64,000 nt of DNA, taken from positions 9,982,001 through 10,046,000 of the forward strand of contig NC_135260.1 of the NCBI RefSeq assembly GCF_964204865.1. Reading direction: 5' to 3'. The DNA comes from Styela clava. Taxonomy: Eukaryota. Below the pieces are notes generated by a model. It worked only from the letters and a program-made list of their open reading frames with translations, did no database searches and was not told where the DNA came from. Shown one piece after another: positions 2,621-63,343 of the stretch; within the stretch, counting starts at the first letter, position 1; each line of letters begins with the position of its first letter. Position numbers and translations under genes: made by a program.

Positions 2621-5600
2621 ATGGCAGAGGGAGATAACTCAGTCTCTGATGATGACTTGAATCAGCAGAAAGGTGAATCTGGTAAGATATTATTGACAAT
2701 CTGAACATAAATAGTTGGATTAAAATTGAGATTTTTATTGTTTACATTTTACCAGTTTGTAATCTCTTGGCACCAGTCAACCAGTTGGTTTAATAATATT
2801 TTTTAATGGTCCTGTTAGAATGAAAAGTCATATTGGCACTACCTTACCCCATATAATTTACACGCTTGGAAGTGGGTGCCATATACAGATATAGCATATG
2901 GCTATCTATCATGCTGATCAAAAATGTGATTTTATAATTTATACCTGTATCATTATTTGTTTGTTGGCGAGCTTCAACAGTTCAAACACAGAAACAGTCA
3001 AAAGGGTGGTAAAATTACTCCAAGTTGGTACCTACTGTAAGCCTCCGTCTGATTGTATTGTAATATATAATACTGTAATATGTAGCGTTTTATATCTAGT
3101 TCATTTATACCAGTATGTAGAATTGTTATCCTCGAAAGTTGCAGGTGCGTAATACATCACCATGAATTTTAATGGTTTCAGTAGCTCTTCGCATTTCAGT
3201 AGTTGTGCATGACCTTGTTTTGAACGAATTTCCTTAAAAAATTACAGGAAATGGGATAAATTGCATTTGGTATTTATGCTTTTCAAGCTATCCATATCTA
3301 CTGCTCCAGCAGTTCTCAAACTTTTTCTTCGTGCTGCGCCAAACTTTTAGGGAAAAAACGCATGGCACACTTACACGAGAAAAATCAATTTTGTGATCGA
3401 TAATGTGTCTGAATTTTATGTCTTGCAAAGTTTGTAAACATGTAGGTCTAAGGAATAAAAGCAAAAGGTTAACTCTTTTTTTTCCATCTTGCCTGATTTT
3501 ACATTGAAATGCTAAAAAATAATTCATGTTCTCTAAACTCGGTTCAGCAGATAAATAAACTGCAGCTCACGAAATTGCATCGAGTGGTGTATATCCCTAT
3601 TGTTACATAACAGTAGAGACAGACATTATGTAACAAAAATTAAACAACATAAAAAGTGAAAAGAATTTATTGATTCAAATACACAGCATTCAAAATAAGA
3701 AACAATAAAACAGTTATAATAATTACAATATGTAAAATATTTAATTATATTTCAGTTATGTCCAATACAATTTTCGCGGCGTACCCTTCGAGAACCGCTG
3801 TACTACAATATTAATTTCTTCATTGATTTATTCAGGCTTCTTTGATCATAGGCCGCTCTTCCTATTATTTTCTCAATGCTTCGTAATTTTGAGATTAATT
3901 ATGATTTTCATTTTTTACAACAGGTACAATAAGAGAAGGGACTGCACGAGTACACATGAAACTTTTCCCAAAATATGGTTTCCTTGTTCCTGATAATCCA
4001 CTCTCCATGGGTGACACAATCTTTTTTGGCCTGACAGCTCATGTAGATGCTTCAAAAAAGTATATTGCAGATCTTCGTGAAGAGCTCTACCCTGATCAAA
4101 AAGTAAAATTCATGGCTGTACCCGTTGAACGCGATGGTTCTATAAAATGGAAGGTAAATATTTGTCTCACACAAAAATAGGATAGGATTTTTATTTTCTC
4201 TCCGGGAGCGAGGAGTCCAGCAATCCTTTTGTACATATTATCACTCATGGGATTTGTACCAGCGAACCCACACAAGATGATCGAAGGTGCGGTGAGCATA
4301 TTCCTAACGCTTACGGGAGCATGATACGCCACCAATACTTAGTTTATATCTACAGTTAGCCTTTGGTGCAAAAATACTGTGCAACAACTTTGTTGTTGTT
4401 TAAATTAACTTTGTTAAATTCATAATCGGCTTTATCATACTTTGTTGGCAGTCTTGGCCCGTCACATTAATTTGGGCGTTTTATGCAAGACTTGTCCTAG
4501 GCGCAGGAATTTGAATGGGAAGTCTAAAACATATTTGGGACATTATAAGTAAATGATGTCGGAAATTAATTTTGTGAATAATCCAGTGTTTTTCAACCTA
4601 TGGGTCGTGAGTTCAAAGCTGCGTGGCCTAAAAATCCATTTTGGTCGCCTGTTTGTCATCAAAAAATTATTGAATTTATTTTCTAGGTAATATAAATGTA
4701 TCTTTTGTATTTGACATTGAATTGTTACTCAGGTATAATTGGATATGTGAGAAAAATATTAAATCGGAAAAGCTTGTTGTGAACGTTAAAACTGATTCAA
4801 TTGAATAGGTTCCTCTTGCAATTTTTATTTTTCAACCGAAATTAAATGATATTCACACGTCACACCACTTTACTTACCGTAAGTGAACTCAATAATTTTT
4901 GGAAATTTGAACCAATTTTTAGTCTCTGATTATCTCTGACAATTCCAACGTGTCCCCGAAGCTCTAAGTTATTTATTTATTATTTATTTTCAGGCATTGG
5001 TGGTTGGTCCTTTACCTGATGACCAACAGGATGTTCCCAGAATTATAGGTATGTGTTATTGCTTCTATTTATTTTTTTTTTGTTTGTCTTTTGTGCCATT
5101 ATACTTTATATTTAGAGGAGGAAGGAGAGGAAGATGGTCAAATCTGGTTAACTTGTCGAATTCATCCAAATTTACAGCCAACACATGGTTTTGCTACTCC
5201 AGAAGGTGGAAATCAATATCATGACAATGTTTATTTTAGTTTACGTGAGGTAAATTCAAATTTAATTTTTTTTTTATTGTAATTTTCTTTTATGTCCCAA
5301 CATTCACTTTTGTAGGCATGTTTATTGTTTTTCCCAAAATATAGACAGTATATCTTGGCATTTCAGTATTCACATGCAAAAATCCCCTTCATTTTCGAGT
5401 GAGTGTTGTGACCTTGCCCTGAGCAATCATCTTATAAAAATATAGGCCTATATACATTATGAGTTACCAAATAAGGAATACATGCACAAATATTTAATTG
5501 TATTATAGAATGAACCATTACATCTATATTTTTGTAACAAAACAATATTAAAAACAAATAGAAATTTCCTTAACAATACGTGTCAAATGATATCAATATT

Positions 5601-8600
5601 TAACTAATTTCATAAAATAATAAATACTCAGTTTTACTCACACTCACACTAAATACTCGGTTTTTATTCTGCCAAGTGTGGCGTTTTGGTTTTGCAAACT
5701 CATAGCTACTGCTCAGACTAATTTTTCCCCATGACTCGCAAAGGCTATCGGGACTGCTTTGGACCGCTGTGTCCATATATTTGGGCTTTGCTCTTGCTCT
5801 CTTGTTAAGTACCGGTAATAATTTTATCAGTTTAGATTTTTTGTGTGGCCCTTCAATTCTCAACTGCATTGAAATAGGGTCTTCAATTTCGTTTCTTCAG
5901 GCAACTGACGGTCTTGAAGTCTCCGTTTCTGATTTGACTTCCGTATTTTCTGCCGGAGAAAGAATCAAAGCTCTTTGTGTGTCTGCTGATCCTCAATTCA
6001 AAGCTAAATACAGAGCATTGAAAGTCTGCAAAATTCCGGAGTCTGCAGATGCTGATTCGGTATGTATGGGTTTGAAAAATTGATCTGAAAAATATTCACG
6101 AATCCTATTTACTGTCAACTGTTTCAATAAACTTTAAAACTGTCTATGCATGTATGAAAGTTTTGTAGTTCTACTCTATGATAGGATTTACAAGTTTATC
6201 CCACTGGAGAGGAAATACTATTAGACAGCATAATCACATGGCTGACCTATGGCCTCTCATCCAGTTACTAGTCCATGTAGGCTCTATCATTATTTGATAC
6301 TGGTATTATTCTTCTTTGCCTATAGTTTGCAGGCAATTCCTATATTGGATTGTGTAAATCTAATTGGAAAGTCAACCAGCTGTAATAAACTTTCTGCTTT
6401 ATCAAATTTATACTGTAATTTGTTTCCAAATTTTTATCATGAACATCGAATATTTAATATCACAATGTTTGATTATTTAATATTTGTTCTCCTTTATAGA
6501 CTGCAAATAGTGATACTCCCGTTTCCAAGAATTCTGCTGAAGATTGTTTGCTGGTCGAAGAAACTGATCAAAGCGCAGTGTCATGGATATATGAAGTTCT
6601 TAAAAGCAAAGATAAAATCAAATTAACAAGCCTAGCAGGAGATTTAAGTCACAATTCCGATATTCGTTCTGTGGTACAACCCCAAAAGAAATCTCTAAAG
6701 CGTTTCCTTGCAAAGTATCCACGTTTCTTCACTATTAAAGAAGATATAGTCAGCCTCGCTCCAAATTGCCCGCCAATTAACTTCAAACCAGTCAGAAAAT
6801 CAAGTGATACATTTCCCAGAGATGAGTATGTTCTTAACAAAAACTGGTCTTCTGAAGACGAGTCTCTCAACAGCCCTAGTGCATCTGAGAGTATACCATC
6901 TGGCATGTCATCACCTATATTATATACAACACATAATTTGAAAACATTGGCGGATTCTTCGTCTCGCTTCACCATGAGCATGCTGGCAAATATAGTCAAG
7001 TCTTTGCCAGAACCAATGAAGATGTCTGAAATTTTTAAACACTGTCAAAAGCAAGGTTGGGAAGGAATGAGAAGTATGGCAATGTTGGCACAAGTCGTTT
7101 CCGACAACCCAACCTATTTTTGCCAGGACGAGAAAGGATGCTTGCTAGTTACTGCGGAAGGAAAAAATCTCTCTGTCAAACAAGCTGATGTTAATAATAT
7201 TAAGACGACAAAAAGTTCCGTAAATGGTACTAACCATCCATTAACAAGTTCTATAATTGTCAGTGCTCCCAATGTTGAAACTACAATAGGTCAAGGACCG
7301 CTTGGAAGCTTTAACCACTCTTCAACTGCATCTGCATTTTCAATCTTCTCTCCACTATCGCCTCCAAAGCCTCAAGAGTCATCTTCATCACTGATAACAC
7401 CTAGTTTAGGATTTGGAACATCTGCCTTCAACCATACTCAGTCAAATGTAGGAATAAATCGAAAAGCATACATGCCTATTAGCACCAATTTTCTTGGTCT
7501 GACTCCATCATATCAGGTATAAATTAAATGATTCTTTATTCCCATCTCATTCTCTTCTTGGTTAAGTGATAGCTGGTAACACTGGTAGCAAAAAGGTTTC
7601 TTATTTTGTCCGTAACTGTAATTAAAATTTTTTTGTTCAACTCTTTCAGTGTTAAATGTAAGACTATAGCTAGATTCCATTTTCAGTGTTGGAAAATATG
7701 TACTGTTTTGCTAAATTGTTGTTAAAGCAATAAATTGCCTGAAAATAGTGCTCTAATCACTCTCAATTCTTTGATATTTAAAGTATATTTGATAGGATAT
7801 TTCGGTGTCACTTTGGTTTGCGATCGCACTTGCTCAAAACATGATCTCAATCACATACCAGGTGTTGCCACTTCGGTATGATTTTAAGCTCTCAATGAAT
7901 TCCAAACCTTATCCTAACTGAGATCACACCTTGTTGAGATTGCTTACTAAAATAGCATCGATATTTTCTTTATATTTTCTAGTCACATTTCTTCCAAGCT
8001 TGTTTGGGTTTGATCTTTTTGTTCCCAAATTGTCTTGTTTTAAATTCTCACCTCTTAGTCTCACTGATCATTTTTGGTGAGCTAGTGGTGATGGTGTGAA
8101 CTGTGAAGACACAGTGACAGTACGTTGAGCACCCCTCTCCTTTTATTTTTAGGCTGACAGATCCAAATCCACAGCAAGTAATAATTTTGGAAATAATTCA
8201 TTCCCTTCAAGTCATGTTTTACCTGTCGCCCATACTTCTTCAACTACTTCCTTGACACGACTCAGTAATGGATATGTAAGTTTACTTTGTTTGAAAATGT
8301 GAATTCGATAGCTATTAATCATAAGCTCGGATATATTTATTATTATGTGTTATTTCAGATCACATGATCACAATAGAGTATCTGACATACAAATGTTCAC
8401 CATTTGACATGAAAAATTATTGCCATTTTCTGAATGCACAACCTATTAATTCAATATATTTTGTTCAAGAAAAAAAATATAATGTAAATAGAAAAATTTT
8501 TGGCGTTCCCAGAAGTGGACCACGTTGAGAAACACTGCTTTACACTACTCACCTATGTAAAATCATATTTAGGTATCTTTTCAATATTTTCGGACATTCG

Positions 8601-11347
8601 TGAGAAGTGGAAAAAACATTGGGAAGCATTCATAATTTTCTTTATTACCTTGCTGATAATTTGCATCACAAATTACATTTACCAGATTTATCACAGTGAC
8701 AATGAAGACTTATTAGATGACAAATTCAGATCTCCAAAATCAGTGACATCTGCGAGTCATTATAATGAAGAGGAGAGTCAATTTTTGTCCGTGGTTGCTC
8801 GAGGAATTTGTCCTCACGCTGTGGGTGGAGGTGAAGAAGTTTTCAAAATGCTGAAAAAAGAGCTCGAAGCACTCGGGATATCATTGTCAGACAACGAGGG
8901 AGGAAACACAAGCGGTACACTGTCACGTCATCTATTATGTTTGGAAATGGATGTGGGAAAGAAACCAAGAGCAAAGTAAGCAGAATAGGATGAAATTTAT
9001 ATATTTTTTGTGGGGGGGGGGGAGAGGAAAATGTAATTGATATTGATATATTATATTTTCTAGGTTCCAGTCTTTCACACCAAGTGGAAAAATCAGCAAA
9101 ACAACTGTGACATTATTGTCAGCTGAAAGAATAAGTGAGGCTGCTCTAGCTAATATGCTTACCTTGTCACAAGCAAATGTTAACATAACAAGAGTTGGAA
9201 GACTTCTATATGGCATAAACAAAGCTTATCATTGTATAAGGTAGAACACTTCCTATTTCATTACTAAAGATGCATTTGTACAAGTGATATTCTTGTCATT
9301 GTATGGTATTAAAGCCCGACATTCAAAAATAGAACTCTTTGTTTGAACCATAGTGAATTTTGGGTATTCCTGTAGTGTGTGTACCATACCAGGTTAGGGT
9401 TAGGCCATAATTTTATTTCGATTTTCCTTATTTCAGTTCTATTGCGAGTTTGGGGACTGTCTGTGTTATACAAGTGAATATACCCCCTGCCCATAGGTTT
9501 CAGTCCCTTTACACAACTTAATGTAAAATAGGCGAACAAAATTAGTCACCTCCGTAACTGAGTGAAATGCTTCCTGCTCTAAATTCTTTCAGAGTCTGAT
9601 ATTTCACTGCAAAATTCGCTGTTTTTCACAAATCCCTGGCATACTTTCACAGCATTTAGGACAGTACTTCTAACATTTGACTGGAAGTTTGCTGGCATTG
9701 TGATCTTCATTTGGCCTTTGTGTGAATATATTTGAGTACTTGTCCCTTGTTTTCGAATAATTCTTTACTATTTAAGAAAAAATATTATAATTTCGAATAC
9801 CAATTATTTCAATTATTATTTACAATATTACAGATTTTTATAGAAATATATTCCTGCTTTTCTTTTCAGAATGCTAACAAATGGTATTGATGAGATTTCT
9901 GGCTGTACTGTAAGTTTCAAGAACCAAGATGCCCCCGATATCAGAATGTCTGATCATTTGCAACTTGGAGAAAAGGGAAAAGTGAAAATAATATTGAGTC
10001 ACAGTAGTCAGGGTACAACCTCAAGTGCTGCTTGTGCATCATTGAGAAAACATGCTATCGAAAAATGTGTGAATTCAACTGTTGTTGTAGTAGACTTGGA
10101 GGGCCAGGTTTGTGCATTCTACTGATATATATACCCTCTCCTTACAAAAATATTTTCAGGGTCTTTGTGTGTTATTTTTCTTAACATTAGCATTGACCGA
10201 CGTGATCATATCAGTCAACTGACCTTTATGCCCATATGTTATCTTGTTTTGCAGATTAAAGTAAAACCGACTCTTTTCATTTGTCCAAATTAGCTTTTCT
10301 ATTCTTATACAGTTCTTTTATACTTTAACTTTACTTTGGGTGGTATGCATAACATCATGTTATTTTCTTTTCTTCAGATTTTTGGATTTGGCTGTCATAC
10401 TTCTGAAGTTCGTCGCATGATTTGTGGAAGCTTAGACATGCAGCAACGACATTTAAAGGAAACTGTTCATCATCATCCCAGTTTAGTTGTTGCAAATTCT
10501 ATCGATTGTGTCGAATCTTTAAAATTATTGAAGCGAATAAATGCTAAAGGTAAGTAGCAGATGCCTGAATGGTAATTATGAATGTGGCTTTAGAAAGGAT
10601 AAAATGGAATTTACATATTTATCTTGGGGAGTGGAAAGTCGATAAGGCGCCTTAATCATATGATGAGCCACGGCCTCTCGTCTTGTTACCAGTCCATGTT
10701 GGGTATGAGATTAGTTAGCCAGTTATTTGTTTCCGGCTTGATGTTGGAGGAAGACCTGCAGTTATGTAACTGACCTGCAGTTACGTGAACCTTCCTATGG
10801 CGGAGAGAAGTACAGCAATCCTCTTGCACATAATTATTGCCTGAAGGCTGAAATAAAGATTTGTGCTCTGGTGTGAAAAAAATTATTTTCATTTTTTAAC
10901 CTGATATTCAGGCTCGACGTAACATCTGCTTAAATATTGCATATGCATAGCACTGTTCTTCATTTTCCAGATTAACCAGTTTAAGTCTATATTCCACTAA
11001 TTTCTCACTTGTTACTGTCATTCCTAGTACCCTCGTGTTGTGTACTTTGTGCGCAATTTTTACAATATTTTCGATTGTCTTTTGTGATTTTCTTATACTA
11101 TCCAGAAACTTCACGCGTATAGGTATTAAAATATATTTCCTCACTAAATTTTACCTTTTCTCGTAAAACATGATATTGATTAATCTGAGTTGTTAATTTA
11201 AGATTACCTAATCGAGCATCCAGCTTCCACATCCACACAATAGCTTGCGCTAAGTAATTTCATTTCTATTTAGGAATTTCCATATATGCAGAGGTCACCA
11301 AATCATTGGAAAAAACTGTGAGAAATATATTTAATGATTGTACATAA
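2621..11347 (+). CDS. ~909 aa putative RNA-binding protein: 2 cold-shock-like OB folds + Egalitarian/LIN-66-like winged helix + Ser-rich linker + ACT-like/alpha-beta C-terminus
   Basis: Exons 2621-2681, 3924-4153, 4994-5048, 5116-5249, 5901-6059, 6500-7516, 8153-8275, 8686-8975, 9064-9240, 9870-10107, 10378-10549, 11274-11347. All introns GT-AG with compatible phases, total 2730 nt, AATAAA near 11505-11525. OB-like repeats KLFPKYGFLVPD..TIFF..DLREELYPDQKVKF..KWKALVV and PTHGFATPE..NVYF..DLTSVFSAGERIKA..KYRALKV. Winged-helix-like segment KLTSLAGDLSH..DIRSVV..KKSLKRFLAKYPRFFTIKEDIVSL. Confidence 0.8.
3307..3800. mobile_element. Non-autonomous hAT-type MITE in intron 1 of gene 1
   Basis: Ends CAGCAGTTCTCAAA (3307) and TTCGAGAACCGCTG (3800) are inverted repeats. 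Flanks tactgctc/tactacaa form only a degenerate 8-bp TSD. Confidence 0.55.
4177..4330 (-). mobile_element. tRNA-derived SINE, internally deleted copy (head joined to tail)
   Basis: Minus strand has a box-B-like GGTACAAATCCC, then AGGATTGCTG (shared with the 10596-10840 copy), then the tail AAATCCTATCCTAT. Confidence 0.6.
6177..6281 (-). mobile_element. SINE 3' fragment (same family as 10596-10840)
   Basis: GATAGGATTTAC..TTTATCCC..GGAGAGGAAA..TAATCACATGG..GGCCTCTCATCCAGTTACTAGTCCATGT aligns with 10596-10700. Confidence 0.7.
10596..10840 (-). mobile_element. SINE body and 3' tail
   Basis: GC-richer intronic block that overlaps in sequence with both the 4177-4330 and 6177-6281 copies. Confidence 0.7.
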
Positions 11348-15195: not shown

Positions 15196-18061
15196 TCACT
15201 TATTTGTTATTTCGGTTCCTTTTGATGAAACTAGCATCGATTGAAGTCGAACTCTCTTCTTCCATACAACATCTACAATATTCGAATACATTAATGGATT
15301 GAGAACACTGTTTATAGGCAAAATAATGATAGCTGTAGCAGCATAAATTTCAGCCCTCGCCTTTATTGCGCCGGTAAAATTTAATAACGCTATGATACAC
15401 AACGGCATCCAACAACAAAAATCACTGGCAACAAGGCGTATGATTTTCTTCTGCATACTCGAACTTCTATCAGCAGTACTTCTAATTTTACTTTTCTTAT
15501 TAGACTTTCTATAAATGGCGATGTAAGCAAGCATTATATAGATGAAAATGAAGAAGTTTACTATCACGATCGTGAATGAATATCCCCACATCATTTCTTT
15601 TGTTGTAACATAGAAGTTCGGTAAACAAACGCTCTCCTGGGAGTAGTATCCATAAAATCCACGAATGCGATGAGCGGGGAAATTTTGCTGCAGGTGATAA
15701 TTAAGTTTACTCCAGTCTTTTGGCAAATTAGTATTAGATGCGTTTGGAGAAAATGCGGTGAGAAGCGTTGCAAATTGTCTCACTCCGTTGAGGTGAACAG
15801 TGCGGGATGAAATGAACTTCGAAGGGATGAATGCTCCATAAGTAAAGGCTTCTTGCATATGAGAGGAAAATGGTATAAGACCTATGAATAAAGCAATACC
15901 CCAGGCTAGAGCTATTGCAATCGCCGCCCATTTAACTTTTATACTCCGTACCGTGAGGGGATTATGCACAGAGACAAGCCTGATCGTTGTAAGTAATGTT
16001 AGCATAAATACAGATGCTTCCGAGGATATGATGGAGATTGCACCGAGCCACACACAGGCATTACTTGTTCGCCATTGAACATCGTGTCTACAATATGCAC
16101 CGGCAACTGTACTGTTTTTTACAGCTATCCCAAGAAGATAGATAGCCATTAACAAATCGGCTATAGCAAGATTAAATAGAATCAGATGATTGCATTTTAG
16201 TAAACCTTCAGCCTTATGTATTCTATCATAATCTCTGATTTTATCAATAATCATATAGCTGTTTCCAAATATACAACAGAACCCGACAAACCAAACCCAA
16301 AATTGAAAGAACGGCGATGCAATCAAATACGCTCTTGATCCAATGGGTTCGTTGTCTAGATCTCTCGGACATTCGTCAGCACCTTCGTGGCAGTCTTGCA
16401 CTCCATCTCCTACAAACCTGTTTGGGACTGATAGAGGAGTTCCTTCCTCGCATTGGTACCTTGAAGTGCAGTTGTCTTCATCGCTTCCGTCGTCACAATC
16501 TTCATACCCGTTACATTTTAGAACGTTATCAATACTGATTAGACTTCCACTCTGGCAATAAAATCTACCTGGACAATTAGTTTCTTCTTCTGGGATACGT
16601 GGATTACAAGAAGACCATTGTCCATCACATATGTGCTCAACAGTAAGGTTAAATGTACCCGTACTTGTATTACATTCTCGAATAAACGGAACAGTAGAAA
16701 AACCTAAATAGCAAAAATCCGATGTTGTGTTTGTTTTATTTACGCACTCAAGATTACACTCGTCCGATAGATCGTAACACTCCGGTCGCCCATCGCAAAG
16801 CCTTGCCAATGTTCGAGTTGAGTTATCTACATCGCCCGCACATCGCATAATCCGACGAGATGAATGAGAACTGCAGTATTTTTCGTCCATCCTGTCTTTG
16901 CAATCTAGCCTTCCATCACATATTTTGTCGGTGGTTAACTCAGTAGTAATATCACAGACAAAAGTCCCCAAAGTACAATTGGTTGTTCCCCACTCTGCTT
17001 CTCGTGTACAATAGCGCGAACAAAATTCTTCATTACGATTTTCGCACGGACATTCGTCAGATAAATCCGAACAATCTACAACTCCATCACATTGTTGTAA
17101 AGTAGATATCCTCATGCTTTTATCAAAGCAGTGAAACAATCTAGAATGTCCATCTGTAGTTTTTCCTTCGTCTTCTTCGTTGTTGCAGTGAGTAAAGCAA
17201 TCAGACACATGTCGTTGTGGAAGAACGCATATGTCACCTCCTTGTCCGAGTGGGCATTTGAACCCGGCCACGTGACGTATTTCATCCGAACCATCTCCGC
17301 AGTGATCAATTTTATCACATGCGTATTTTGTACTAATACATTTTCCATTTTTGCATTGATACGTTCCGTTTATACAGTCGCCGTTATCGCAAAACTCCTG
17401 CCATGACCAACATTCTGGCCTCTTTTTTCGGCAACCCCTCTCATCACTATAATCTCCACAAGAATCAATTCCGTCGCACACTTTTATCTGCGATAAGCAT
17501 TTACCATTGCCGCAGTTATATTCTCCAAAATTACAAAGGGGATCAGTTGTAGAAGAGTTACTTTGAGGAGTAGTATCTGTTTGACAATTCCCCGGTAATA
17601 TACCTGCATGTGATTCAAAATTTCAATTTTATTTTACCTTAATTCAAATAACATTTAAAGTTATAGCCTTATGTGAACATGGTATAAAATGTGTTCACAA
17701 CTTGTAGCTTCGACGAAAGAAAAATATCTTAACAAATAAATATTTTTTAGCTTGCTATCGAAATATAAAGGAATCAAATAACACATATAGTTTAACTATT
17801 TTTTGTAACCAACTTTCATTAACATTTTTATGTTTTATGACGCTTATGCTATAAGCCTGATGATTTGGTTCAATAATTAAATTAAATTAATTGCCGCCTA
17901 TTATAGTCATATGAACACCTATGATTTTTCATTGCTGAAAAGAAAGAGCAAGCAATCTACTGAACTATCTAATTCTATTTCACATTATATCACGTCATGT
18001 GAAGTTACTTCAGTATCTTACCTTGTGTGCATGTTAATAATAACAAAAAAGCAAGTCGCAT
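15196..18061 (-). CDS. ~815 aa class A GPCR, RXFP/LGR (GRL101-like) 7TM with ~9 N-terminal LDLa modules and no leucine-rich repeats
   Basis: Exon 1 18061-18022 (MRLAFLLLLTCTQG, signal-like, donor GTAAG) and exon 2 17603-15196 (phase 1, 2408 nt). Repeated CDGxxDCxDxSDE motifs. 7TM hallmarks WVWFVGFCCIFGN, NLAIADLLMAIYL, WRTSNAC, SSEASVFMLTLLTTIRL, SVCLP, SDFCCWMP, LPINSVLNPLMY. Confidence 0.93.
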
Positions 18062-60606: not shown

Positions 60607-63343
60607 CTACACGTATTCTTGACTATGTTTTGTAGCGGGTGGTCTGTAAGCATATCCTCGGGAATGGTGGTCGTCTTCGCTGTCGTCACAAGATGTACAG
60701 ATAGCCAACAATCCTCCAAGGAAAAGCAGGGCTCCTCCTGCCCAACCCAGAAACAATGCTTCCCCGAACACATTCCTAAATTGCATACATTTTCGATCAA
60801 AATCATGCGTACACCCGTATAGTGCTAGCATACAATACTAAATTATTTTCTTTATTTTGATCTTAAGCTATATATATTACAATAGTATATGCTGACCCGT
60901 AATAAATTTGAAAGTAATTGAAAAAGGTTAGCGTGTTTAAAATTAAGGAATCACGGCAGCACGATTAGAGAGTTTTGACAAATTGTTATTGTTAAAGTCT
61001 TATCACGTTTTCCCCAGACGACAAGTTTTTGGTTCTGACAAATTTTGGTACCAGTTACAAAATTGAATATAAAATTACGACGTAGTCAATTTTTATAAAA
61101 TTAATTACTTTAGTATTCGTCTGGTATGTCCAAATTATATTGAATTAAGCTTTATGAAAGCGAAGAACGAAGGAGACGTGACGCCATTCGAAAAAGAAAA
61201 AAAAATCAAAATAAAGTTAGACTAACGAAAGGTAGGAGATAGGTTCAAATTAACGCGAGTTCAGTAACCCTGTCGCTTTGTGAGGGTTTTGCTTATTCAT
61301 CGGAGATCAGGCGTATTGGGGGATAAAATGACGCCCACACCAGTTGAATTACAGCACACCCAATCACTTTCTTACGTTCTATGCTCAAAATGGCACGAAT
61401 GGATATATGGTCGAAGTCCGAAATCAATAATGGGAAGCCAGTTGTAATAACACAAGGTTGACTATTGATTGTGTTTAAAGATATGGGCACTTGAACAAAA
61501 ATCATTTCAGTATATTACAAATTGGGAATACAGAAAACACTAATGATATTCGATCTCAATTTTACCTATCCTAACCTAACGAAGAGAGTATTATTGGTTA
61601 ACATATAAATCAGGTATCGTCAAATTACGACCAGGATAGACATAGAGATTGAATTCAATTATATATTTTTGATAACGCACATTACCAACGCTTTTCATTT
61701 GTGAAAATTGAATGGAATTTGATTTACCTAGTGACATTGGATCCACCTAGTTTTCTTGCCGTTTCCACATCGTATTCGAGTCTGATTTGATTGGCGTACC
61801 ACGAAGCAGCAGCAATGATACAGAATCCTCCAACAATTGACATCGCGCCTGCCACCATGCGGATACGTCTCTATAAATTAGATTTTAATAAAAAGAAAAT
61901 TATAAAATAGGATGTTAACGTTAGGTAATCAATATTTGATATACCCCGGGGCGTAAAGTAAATTATGTACAACTAGTAATTTTGAAATGAATGAAAAATA
62001 ACGGTTTTATATATGGTTTGAGAAGATAACAATTTATCATTATAATACCAGTTTCGAAAACAAAAAATATTCTCATTAAATATATTTTGCGAAAAATGTA
62101 TTGATATTTCGTCACGTTTGTAAAATGTTTCTAAGAAATGTAAAAGTGACTGATTTTCGAAGAGAAAATTATCATGAATCCACTAAATTTGCTCATTACT
62201 CGTTGCGCGATATATTTTGAACGTATTATTGGAATTCGTGAAATATGGCTACTCTGATATTTTGAGCGAGCTCACCTTCATGTTCTTATTGTCAGATCCA
62301 CATGGTACACTATCCATTCCCAAAACAATTGTAGCTGTTGCAGCAATTCCAAGTAATATAGCGGTCACACCAAACCCTCTAGCTGGAAATGAAATGTTAT
62401 TGATTGTTTATTTACGGTTTCAATAAAAATACAAAAAATTGTTAAAATCCTTTTTTACTGATACTATTGAAGATAGTTTAGGATTATTTTTTAAGTGTAT
62501 ACAATTAAAGCAGACGACGAACCTTTTCTTATGTATTAATTTTTTTTCAATCAATATTTGCAAGAAAAGTTTGTGATAAGGATAACAAAATATATATTTG
62601 TATGACGTTAATCGTTTGTCGATGCCGTTCTTTAAAATAATCTGTGAGATCCGAATTGAAAAAAAATCGATTGAGTTATTAAATATGCATATACCTGCTT
62701 GCAACATAGCTGGAAGTCCAAGAAAAAATTTGTTGAAATCATCACATTCCCAGTTTCCGGTGGAATAAGTCACACATTTCACCCATATTCCTTTATGCTG
62801 TAAATAATTGGTTGAAAAATTAGAAAAAAGTTTGTTGTGTTACTGTTTTCTGATAGTTCATCTAGTCACTATTCAGACAAGTTTTCTTGTGATATAACAC
62901 TTTTGAATTGAATAGGTATAAGGTAATTTGAGTACTCTAGTGTCGAGTTTTCCCTTTGTCCAATTTTAGTCAAAACACACCTCTTATGATATTTGAGTAT
63001 AAAGAATAAGACGTCGATTGAACCGTTTCAAAAATCATTATATTTGGATTTAACATCACAAAATGTAAAATTATATAAGATCAGGTAACAAAAATTTGGA
63101 AATAAGAGAATAGTTATAAAAATTATACTGCGATTCTTCTCCTATTTCAATGGTTCGCTTAATATGAAGAAATGTCTTAATATGAAGAAATGTCTTTATA
63201 TTACCCACCCTTATGATGTTATCATTGACGGTATCTTCAGGATCGTTCTTCTCCCAGTATGGAATTCCTACTGAAATGCATGTCAAGAGACATCCAATTG
63301 CAATACAAATAGTGGAGGCAATCTCAATACCAGAAGCACCCAT
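60607..63343 (-). CDS. Claudin (classic type), 218 aa, paralog B
   Basis: Exons 63343-63209, 62797-62695, 62382-62276, 61870-61728, 60775-60607 (657 nt). IPYW..GIWVKC..WECDDF, LQAARG, ASWYA, FGEALFLGW, C-terminal EYV PDZ-binding motif. Confidence 0.93.
63158..63193. repeat. Perfect 18-bp tandem duplication in claudin B intron 1
   Basis: CTTAATATGAAGAAATGT x2. Confidence 0.9.

What the first reader, a model, noticed from the sequence alone, without database searches (positions are those of the whole stretch)
8686..11347. SerB-like ACT (amino-acid sensing) module apparently fused to the putative RNA-binding protein
Seen: LSVVARGICP..GEEVFKMLKKELEALGISLS, then KTTVTLLSAERISEAALANMLTLSQANVNITRVGRL..YHCIRMLTNG, later TVVVVDLEGQ and LVVANSID..SLKLLKRINAKGISIYAEV. 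Knowledge: the second ACT domain of ACT-containing phosphoserine phosphatases reads roughly VTLL.r.isa..L..v...l...glNI..i.RL....cIEf.v.G, and HAD motif I is hhhDxDxT. Inference: a degenerate, probably catalytically dead ACT(-HAD-like or RCK-like) module joined to RNA-binding domains could couple metabolite levels to mRNA control. This is the best candidate for an undescribed system in the window, but the similarity is by eye only.
Basis: inference. Interest (0 to 1): 0.75.

Follow-up and report, generated by a model that had tools for sequence, protein, structure and literature searches.

The report
Dead motor ATPase on RNA-binding protein
This sea-squirt gene joins likely RNA-binding domains to a bacterial-style ring-motor ATPase domain that has lost its catalytic residues yet is kept in two distant sea-squirt genera, and the dead motor likely serves to clip several copies of the protein together; it is not the amino-acid sensor first proposed.

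Summary
The fusion is real; the label is wrong. 8686-11347 is exons 8-12 (aa 594-909) of one 12-exon, 909-aa gene. All 11 introns appear as GT-AG joints in transcript-type contigs, and one 3.5-kb contig carries the whole gene.

The C-terminal part is not ACT/SerB/HAD. It is a Ycf45/SpoIIIAA-type (PilT/VirB11-like) P-loop ATPase domain: profile-profile probability 98.7%, E 1.6e-16, 204 columns, including the stretch read as ACT. Fold searches agree.

Walker A lysine, Walker B DE, Asp-box glutamate, His box and both invariant arginines are gone in 7 of 7 long homologues (named ones: Styela, Ciona). The domain is still 82% identical to an orthologue whose linker is 52% identical, so it is a conserved pseudo-ATPase. 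The N-terminus has two cold-shock-like domains and one Egalitarian winged helix.

A three-copy model passed (0.44, best control 0.00) with PilT-like head-to-tail packing, possibly from memory. Best reading: a non-catalytic oligomerisation hub on an RNA-binding adaptor; function untested. New variant of a known kind.

The parts
2621..2681 (+). Coding exon 1 (start codon; aa 1-20). NCBI isoform X2 lacks aa 18-20.
   Evidence: (joint 2680-3923 in X5 only)
3924..5048 (+). Exons 2-3 (3924-4153, 4994-5048): cold-shock-like OB domain 1, aa ~21-105; 95% identical in the orthologue
   Evidence: profile hits UNR/CSDE1 CSD, E 0.0017
5116..6059 (+). Exons 4-5 (5116-5249, 5901-6059): cold-shock-like OB domain 2, aa ~122-206; 86% identical in the orthologue
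6572..6763 (+). Egalitarian-type winged-helix domain (WH_Egal PF23713), aa 238-301, inside exon 6 (6500-7516)
   Evidence: 49.3 bits, cut-off 27, E 7e-13
6932..7180 (+). Second conserved segment, aa 358-440 (83% identical in the orthologue); winged-helix-like by eye only, not confirmed by profile
   Evidence: negative tests
7181..8766 (+). Ser/Thr/Asn/Pro-rich linker, aa 441-620 (end of exon 6, exon 7 at 8153-8275, start of exon 8); 52% identical in the orthologue
8686..8975 (+). Exon 8: end of linker, leading helices and first strand of the Ycf45-like N-subdomain (LEMDVGKKP)
9064..9240 (+).
9870..10107 (+). Exon 10: end of N-subdomain (Ser764 for the second invariant Arg), dead Walker A at 9997-10020 (no Lys), Asp box at 10093-10107 (DLEGQ for DTSNE)
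10378..10549 (+). Exon 11: RecA-like core with invariant Arg841 and His860 and dead Walker B at 10486-10500 (VVANS for IVIDE)
11274..11347 (+). Exon 12 coding part: lost His box at 11288-11299 (AEVT for GTAH), last helix and stop; transcript contigs continue past 11800

Best explanation
The region encodes a Ycf45/SpoIIIAA-type P-loop ATPase domain that has lost its catalytic motifs and ends a single spliced 909-aa protein with two cold-shock-like domains and an Egalitarian-type winged helix, and it likely acts as a non-catalytic self-assembly hub that would bring several likely RNA-binding heads together on target mRNAs. SHOWN: one transcript; homology to Ycf45-type ATPases over both subdomains; loss of Walker A Lys, Walker B DE, Asp-box Glu, His box and two invariant Arg in 7 of 7 long homologues; conservation under selection; a small gene family in Styela and Ciona with shared introns. 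PREDICTED: head-to-tail self-association through the N-subdomain/RecA-core contact that builds PilT/PilB rings. INFERRED: no ATP hydrolysis; RNA binding by the cold-shock and winged-helix domains; a gain of avidity from oligomerisation, as when Egalitarian needs two molecules to form its RNA pocket; a role in mRNA localisation, storage or translation.
For: Transcript. Homology: an unguided hmmsearch of aa 621-909 over 1.84 billion representatives gave 11 hits at E<=0.001. One of them is an intact Ycf45-type ATPase (P0018, E 6.4e-6; Pfam Spore_III_AA E 5.5e-17) and none is annotated ACT or HAD. hhalign of 7 homologues against 7 intact ATPases: 98.7%, E 1.6e-16, 204 columns. The reverse HMM from 80 intact Ycf45 proteins hits 7 of 7 long homologues at 19.6-34.6 bits; the real domain scores 23.5 bits against a best of 4.6 among 1000 shuffles. 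ESM Atlas structure rows: 10 of 10 are Spore_III_AA, TM about 0.62 over about 240 residues. An AlphaFold2 model built without any intact ATPase in the alignment gives only PilT/VirB11-type ATPases in the Foldseek rows shown (best E 6.9e-8) and Z 11.9 and 11.8 to pilus motors. Motif loss. Selection: 82% identity in the domain versus 52% in the linker; 22 of 24 coding differences listed are synonymous, 4 of 4 in exons 8-12. Four of four introns in the domain match a paralogue in position and phase. Three-copy model: score 0.44, best of 3 controls 0.00, runs agree in at least 86% of contacts, partner pLDDT 66; the mark was reached by 21 of 30 solved one-chain pairs and 0 of 23 single chains (eukaryotes 17 of 29 and 0 of 30). 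Its best-resolved contacts use Thr762 and His860, which are invariant in all 31 aligned sequences. The N2D-to-CTD contact is the main inter-chain contact of PilB (PMC5424180, passages).
Against: No function was measured. The complex pass may come from memory of solved PilT-like rings (only 1 of 7 eukaryotic pairs without an older solved relative passed), and the job used three copies, unlike the calibration. The predicted interface is not more conserved than the rest of the domain (0.51 vs 0.49, permutation p 0.32; 4 of 17 invariant positions lie in it). The AlphaFold2 model is mediocre (pLDDT 60.5, aa 722-783 under 50; Foldseek TM 0.25-0.37). Pfam PF19568 does not hit the protein directly. 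The cold-shock assignment is modest (E 0.0017). Only one winged helix is confirmed, whereas Egalitarian uses ED1, ED2, ExoHD and XAD together (PMC13186709, passages). Tissue and stage of expression are unknown.
Confidence: 0.55

Rival explanations
1. The dead ATPase domain is a monomeric docking or RNA-contact surface, like the non-catalytic exonuclease domain of Egalitarian, and does not oligomerise.
For: The predicted interface is not enriched in conserved residues. Basic residues are kept at positions 685, 690, 749 and 841 in most or all homologues. In Egalitarian, catalytic residues of the exonuclease domain are dispensable while the domain is needed for RNA binding (PMC12579938, passages).
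Against: The three-copy model passes with a family-typical head-to-tail contact. Both subdomains, which meet mainly across subunits in this family, are retained.
Confidence: 0.2
2. It is a dead subunit that co-assembles with its paralogues, or with an active ATPase, in a mixed ring and regulates it.
For: Three paralogues with this domain lie in the genome. The ring-type contact is predicted to survive.
Against: All three paralogues lack the catalytic motifs (the third is judged from its close homologue P0017). No intact Ycf45-type gene was found in the genome with PF19568 or P0018, although exon-by-exon searches are weak.
Confidence: 0.12
3. The emptied nucleotide site still binds a nucleotide or metabolite without hydrolysis and tunes RNA binding.
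For: Asp824, Gly827, Gly831 and His835 around the old site are invariant in 7 of 7 homologues. This protein keeps G-T-T at the start of the P-loop helix.
Against: The P-loop differs in sequence and length among the homologues and has no lysine in any. Walker B and the His box are gone.
Confidence: 0.1
4. One reading: a SerB-like ACT (HAD- or RCK-like) module that senses amino acids.
For: A by-eye pattern of strand, helix, strand, strand in aa 702-754, partly seen in the model.
Against: No ACT, HAD or TrkA hit. No DxDx[TV]. The same residues align with the Ycf45 N-subdomain at 98.7%. The helix and strands that follow belong to the RecA core.
Confidence: 0.02

Closest known systems
Ycf45 / 'R3H domain-containing AAA ATPase' of bacteria and plastids, and SpoIIIAA (Pfam PF19568; PilT/VirB11-like secretion ATPases)
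   Same: Colinear N-subdomain plus RecA-type core over 204 columns; 13 positions invariant across 7 homologues and 24 intact proteins; fold matches to PilT, PilB, GspE, DotB, FlaI.
   Different: Walker A, Walker B, Asp-box Glu, His box and two Arg are lost. The C-terminal PTPase-like and R3H domains of the cyanobacterial protein are absent. The domain sits at the end of a spliced animal protein behind cold-shock and winged-helix domains.
Drosophila Egalitarian (PDB 9rvy; PMC13186709) and planarian Egal-1 (PMC12579938)
   Same: WH_Egal domain above the Pfam cut-off. A Ciona homologue matches 9rvy at E 0.00049. Gly260/Ser263 line up, through that homologue, with ED2 Gly124/Ser127 at the RNA minor groove. 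Both pair winged helices with an enzyme fold used without catalysis.
   Different: One confirmed winged helix instead of three; no exonuclease-homology domain or XAD; two cold-shock-like domains and a pseudo-ATPase that Egalitarian's described domains do not include. BicD and dynein-light-chain binding were not tested.
C. elegans LIN-66 (PMC11184513) and UNR/CSDE1
   Same: Cold-shock domain(s) with low-complexity regions. The Atlas ranks an Egal-1 winged-helix cluster first (0.86) and a LIN-66-like cluster third (0.83) for aa 20-440, as leads only. The OB profile's best hits are UNR/CSDE1 domains.
   Different: No ATPase-like domain appears in the LIN-66 passages read; orthology was not tested.
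Uncharacterised eukaryotic (winged helix +) DEDDy exonuclease + Ycf45 ATPase fusions
   Same: Winged helix and Ycf45-type ATPase in one eukaryotic chain; a plausible ancestral architecture (inference).
   Different: Those notes describe an exonuclease domain and, where they say so, an intact ATPase. Here the exonuclease is absent, the ATPase is dead and cold-shock-like domains are added.

Membership tests
ACT-containing phosphoserine phosphatase (SerB) | Sequence match to ACT families (ACT, ACT_6, ACT_PSP_2) or SerB models | tested here: not met
   Full-protein Pfam scan gives WH_Egal only; NCBIfam 0 families; PF21086 0 candidates in the genome while 2 of 14 controls ring. HMMER filters drop most matches above E 0.1.
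ACT-containing phosphoserine phosphatase (SerB) | Beta-alpha-beta-beta-alpha-beta ACT fold | tested here: inconclusive
   This subdomain was not folded alone and is partly under pLDDT 50; fold lists are filled by the RecA core. By sequence the residues belong to the Ycf45 N-subdomain.
   No match in aa 594-909; the Asp is the Ycf45 DTSNE aspartate.
RCK / TrkA-N | Sequence match to TrkA-N family | tested here: not met
   No such family in the Pfam scan; no profile-profile test against RCK was run.
Ycf45/SpoIIIAA (PilT/VirB11-like) ATPases | N-subdomain plus RecA-type core, homologous in sequence and fold | tested here: met
Ycf45/SpoIIIAA (PilT/VirB11-like) ATPases | Walker A GxxxxGK[T/S] | tested here: not met
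   SHSSQGTT at aa 792-799; absent at this site in 7 of 7 long homologues
Ycf45/SpoIIIAA (PilT/VirB11-like) ATPases | Walker B acidic pair (IDE) | tested here: not met
   VVANS at aa 865-869; DE absent in 7 of 7
Ycf45/SpoIIIAA (PilT/VirB11-like) ATPases | Asp box glutamate and His box (PMC2703783, PMC5424180, passages) | tested here: not met
   DTSNE reads DLEGQ (Asp kept, Glu to Gln in 6 and Lys in 1 of 7); TAHG lost in 7 of 7
Ycf45/SpoIIIAA (PilT/VirB11-like) ATPases | Two conserved arginines of the N-subdomain (taken as the arginine fingers by analogy with PilB) | tested here: not met
   Invariant Arg in 24 of 24 intact proteins; Cys747 and Ser764 here; a new invariant Arg749 lies two residues on
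Ycf45/SpoIIIAA (PilT/VirB11-like) ATPases | Ring assembly through N-subdomain to core contacts | tested here: inconclusive
   Three-copy model passes (0.44, best control 0.00) but may be from memory; a hexamer could not be modelled
Ycf45/SpoIIIAA (PilT/VirB11-like) ATPases | ATP hydrolysis | not testable with these tools
   Inferred absent from motif loss
Egalitarian family | Egal winged-helix domain (PF23713) | tested here: met
   49.3 bits, cut-off 27; also in 5 of the 6 other long homologues by Pfam
Egalitarian family | Three Egl domains | tested here: not met
   One confirmed; aa 358-440 fails the profile tests
Egalitarian family | Exonuclease-homology domain with XAD | tested here: not met
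   No exonuclease family hit; the matching part of the chain is a low-complexity linker
Egalitarian family | BicD and dynein-light-chain binding | not tested
   none
Cold-shock-domain proteins (UNR/CSDE1, LIN-66) | CSD OB fold with RNP1-like GF motif | tested here: inconclusive
   Profile of 7 domains: 11 of 12 PDB hits are cold-shock domains, best E 0.0017; no direct Pfam hit

The most novel reading that the evidence does not exclude
Tunicates carry a chordate branch of an overlooked eukaryotic Egalitarian-Ycf45 family. It has dropped the exonuclease, killed the ring-motor ATPase and kept the ring as a scaffold that displays up to six sets of cold-shock and winged-helix domains. That would make it a candidate selector for the localised maternal mRNAs (postplasmic/PEM RNAs) or RNA granules of ascidian eggs.
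Probability: 0.15. Interest if true: 0.85.

Novelty: new variant of a known kind. Interest (0 to 1): 0.58.

Why it matters
It corrects the annotation of an uncharacterised chordate gene family. A bacterial-type pilus-motor ATPase fold, invisible to Pfam here, survives as a pseudoenzyme in Styela and Ciona, which lie in different ascidian orders (recalled). It also places Egalitarian-type winged helices in chordates, where a 2025 paper saw this N-terminal region 'not clearly in deuterostomes' (PMC12579938, passages). Ascidian eggs localise maternal mRNAs (PMC5927453, PMC8918112; start of abstracts only), and Ciona allows knock-down and imaging, so the family gives named, testable candidates for an Egalitarian-like RNA adaptor. 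If the ring is real, it shows a motor ring reused as a pure multivalency scaffold.

Tried and rejected
- Separate-gene reading of 8686-11347: rejected by the spliced joints 7514-8151 and 8275-8686 in three studies. No listed run is on record as RNA, so tissue and level are unknown.
- A possible acceptor at 8359 leading to an early stop was not among the joints shown (95 rows of that table were not shown).
- Single exons gave no family hit except WH_Egal.
- Word-index searches found only this protein and one orthologue, or 4 already known proteins.
- The first AlphaFold2 run on 2 sequences was useless (pLDDT 34.8).
- The PDB sequence search with the 7-sequence profile gave 11 matches, led by designed TIM barrels; I set these aside as repeat artefacts.
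- No ACT, HAD or RCK entry is among the fold rows shown. This absence does not exclude a fold.
- I could not fetch an ACT-type SerB for a head-to-head profile comparison: 0 of 2 and 0 of 301 genomes. Exon 9 against plasmids gave only E>=2 matches.
- No intact Ycf45-type gene was found in the genome with PF19568 or P0018. The three DNA_pol_A_exo1 loci show no winged-helix or Ycf45 signal within 1.5 kb.
- Tree of 36 sequences: the 7 homologues form one clade on a very long branch and join an unresolved set of Ycf45 proteins. No donor or transfer event can be read, and no eukaryotic exonuclease-Ycf45 protein was in the tree.
- A second winged helix at aa 358-440 was not confirmed.
- Interface conservation was not enriched.
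- The viral-contig scan gave only short P-loop matches.
- Paper searches with no hit: ycf45 + SpoIIIAA, SpoIIIAA + R3H + eukaryot, four LOC identifiers. The 30 of 34 ycf45 papers listed show no animal protein in their titles. None of the 15 of 30 ascidian papers listed contains 'egalitarian'. Subscription journals and supplements were not searched.
Full report
1. The gene. The window is intron-rich animal DNA from a 377-Mb assembly. Twelve GT-AG exons from 2621 to 11347 give an open 909-aa frame. This frame equals XP_039267874.2, 'uncharacterized protein LOC120342626' of Styela clava. The finding is exons 8-12, aa 594-909. Contigs of public runs show 11 of 11 introns as joints in X5, 10 of 11 in X1 and X6 (three studies), and none in the genomic-looking run X10. 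One 3525-nt contig spans all listed exons. The runs are only guessed to be RNA and are contigs, but precise intron removal in three studies and not in the control run is what spliced mRNA gives.

2. The C-terminal domain is not ACT. Pfam finds only WH_Egal in the whole protein, and NCBIfam finds nothing. ACT_PSP_2 has no candidate in the genome, and there is no HAD motif I. Four lines point to the Ycf45/SpoIIIAA family instead.
(a) ESM Atlas, aa 620-909: all 10 structure rows are Spore_III_AA (TM 0.60-0.64 over about 240 residues); feature scores of 0.87-0.89 are leads only.
(b) An unguided HMMER search gave 11 hits at E<=0.001 among 1.84 billion proteins: the query, 4 unnamed exon-sized fragments, 5 long homologues and one intact Ycf45-type ATPase, P0018.
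(c) Profile-profile comparison gives 98.6% to P0018 and 98.7%, E 1.6e-16, 204 columns to 7 intact ATPases, starting at aa 674 and running through the 'ACT' stretch. The reverse HMM from 80 intact metagenomic Ycf45 proteins hits 7 of 7 long homologues (E-values there are per single sequence). The domain scores 23.5 bits against at most 4.6 for 1000 shuffles.
(d) An AlphaFold2 model from the 7 homologues alone (pLDDT 60.5) returns PilT, PilB/PilF, TadA/CpaF, GspE, DotB, FlaI, HP0525 and the archaeal 5f4h ATPase in Foldseek (68 matches at E<=0.001; TM only 0.25-0.37). VIA-align gives Z 11.9 (3jc8, 182 aligned, rmsd 7.1) and 11.8 (PilT 2ewv, 130 aligned, rmsd 3.1).

3. It is a pseudo-ATPase. This family is defined by Walker A and B, Asp and His boxes (PMC2703783, passages) and two arginine fingers (PMC5424180, passages). 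Against the intact consensus, GRPGVGKT reads SHSSQGTT, DTSNE reads DLEGQ, IVIDE reads VVANS and GTAH reads AEVT. The two invariant N-subdomain arginines read Cys747 and Ser764. All 7 long homologues lack all of these. Shared replacements (Asn to Gly827 and Ser to Arg749 in 7 of 7) suggest one ancestral inactivation before Styela and Ciona split (inference).

4. It is maintained. Against the unnamed orthologue P0008 the domain is 82% identical (236 of 289), like the N-terminal domains (83-95%) and unlike the linker (93 of 180, 52%). Of the 40 difference rows shown (178 not shown), 24 are coding; 22 of these are synonymous, including 4 of 4 in exons 8-12. The genome holds two more paralogues, convergently arranged on contig C10. 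The one I mapped, LOC120339144, shares all four introns of the domain in position and phase. Ciona intestinalis has at least two members, LOC100180871 and LOC100179491. This is an old, domesticated animal gene family and not contamination. All named members are tunicate, but the 2-sequence profile barely reached intact relatives, so the family's range beyond tunicates is open.

5. The N-terminus. Two repeats at aa 21-105 and 122-206 align with the first domain of four homologues and of a genomic paralogue. Their profile's hits are UNR/CSDE1 and CspA cold-shock domains (11 of 12 rows, best E 0.0017). WH_Egal lies at aa 238-301 (49.3 bits). Through the Ciona homologue that matches Drosophila Egalitarian (9rvy, E 0.00049), Gly260/Ser263 line up with ED2 Gly124/Ser127, which read the RNA minor groove (PMC13186709, passages; alignment). 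A second conserved segment (aa 358-440) was not confirmed as a winged helix. No exonuclease domain was found. The Atlas ranks Egal-1 and LIN-66-like clusters highest, below 0.9. LIN-66 acts in translation through its cold-shock domain (PMC11184513, passages).

6. How it most likely works. In PilB the main inter-chain contact is N-domain on the neighbour's C-domain (PMC5424180). Three copies of aa 641-909, folded from the single sequence, pack in that way: aa 677-705 and 747-764 on aa 817-881. The score is 0.44 against a best control of 0.00, the runs agree in at least 86% of contacts, and pLDDT is 66. The mark was reached by 21 of 30 solved one-chain pairs and 0 of 23 single chains. The tool warns that such a pass can come from memory of solved rings. 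My conservation test was negative overall (interface 0.51, rest 0.49, p 0.32), although the best-resolved contacts involve invariant Thr762, His860, Arg841 and Arg749. I therefore put the hub model at about 0.55. A domain that no longer burns ATP would hold several chains together, so that cold-shock and winged-helix heads on long flexible linkers bind RNA with avidity. Egalitarian likewise needs two molecules to form its RNA pocket. The identity of the domain is about 0.95 certain; its role is inferred.

7. Origin. My tree cannot place the donor: the homologues form one clade on a very long branch. Earlier AI notes of this scan describe eukaryotic winged-helix/exonuclease/Ycf45 fusions in protists, fungi, choanoflagellates and a crinoid. 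If they hold, this gene would be a derived animal member that lost the exonuclease and inactivated the ATPase, the mirror image of Egalitarian. I did not test those notes.

8. Novelty. Each domain type is known; the combination of cold-shock-like domains, an Egal winged helix and a dead Ycf45-type ATPase in a chordate was not found in print. The searches were made, over open-access text only, with no supplements read.

Noticed in passing
window 15196-17622, minus strand: An 808-aa uninterrupted frame with many LDL-receptor-class-A-like cysteine repeats followed by a seven-transmembrane-like region (family names recalled, by eye); apparently without introns in an intron-rich genome.
   Followed up: no
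G000:C10:19362200-19380100 (L107, L108): Two paralogues of this gene lie about 7 kb apart in convergent orientation; each has one cold-shock-like domain, at least two winged helices and the pseudo-ATPase exons.
   Followed up: partly
window 9387-9553, ~10700-10790, ~4207-4335, ~3500-3700: High-copy repeats inside introns, seen as very high contig depth in all four runs; likely short mobile elements.
   Followed up: no
window 2672-2681: NCBI isoform X2 lacks aa 18-20, which fits an alternative donor 9 bases upstream in exon 1.
   Followed up: partly
window 8709: A 3-base in-frame insertion in one contig of run X6, in the linker part of exon 8.
   Followed up: no
window 6656 (aa 266): The window has Ser where contigs of three runs, the earlier NCBI version and the orthologue have Pro, inside the winged helix.
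   Followed up: partly
window 62420-62839, minus strand: A short frame with a claudin-like G-I-W-x-x-C...C motif (family recalled, by eye).
   Followed up: no
L022-L026 (Thermus, Meiothermus, Oceanithermus and Deinococcus plasmids): Ycf45-like ATPases on plasmids, in 2 of these 5 near a lytic transglycosylase gene and in 1 next to a type IV secretion gene; may be conjugation ATPases.
   Followed up: no
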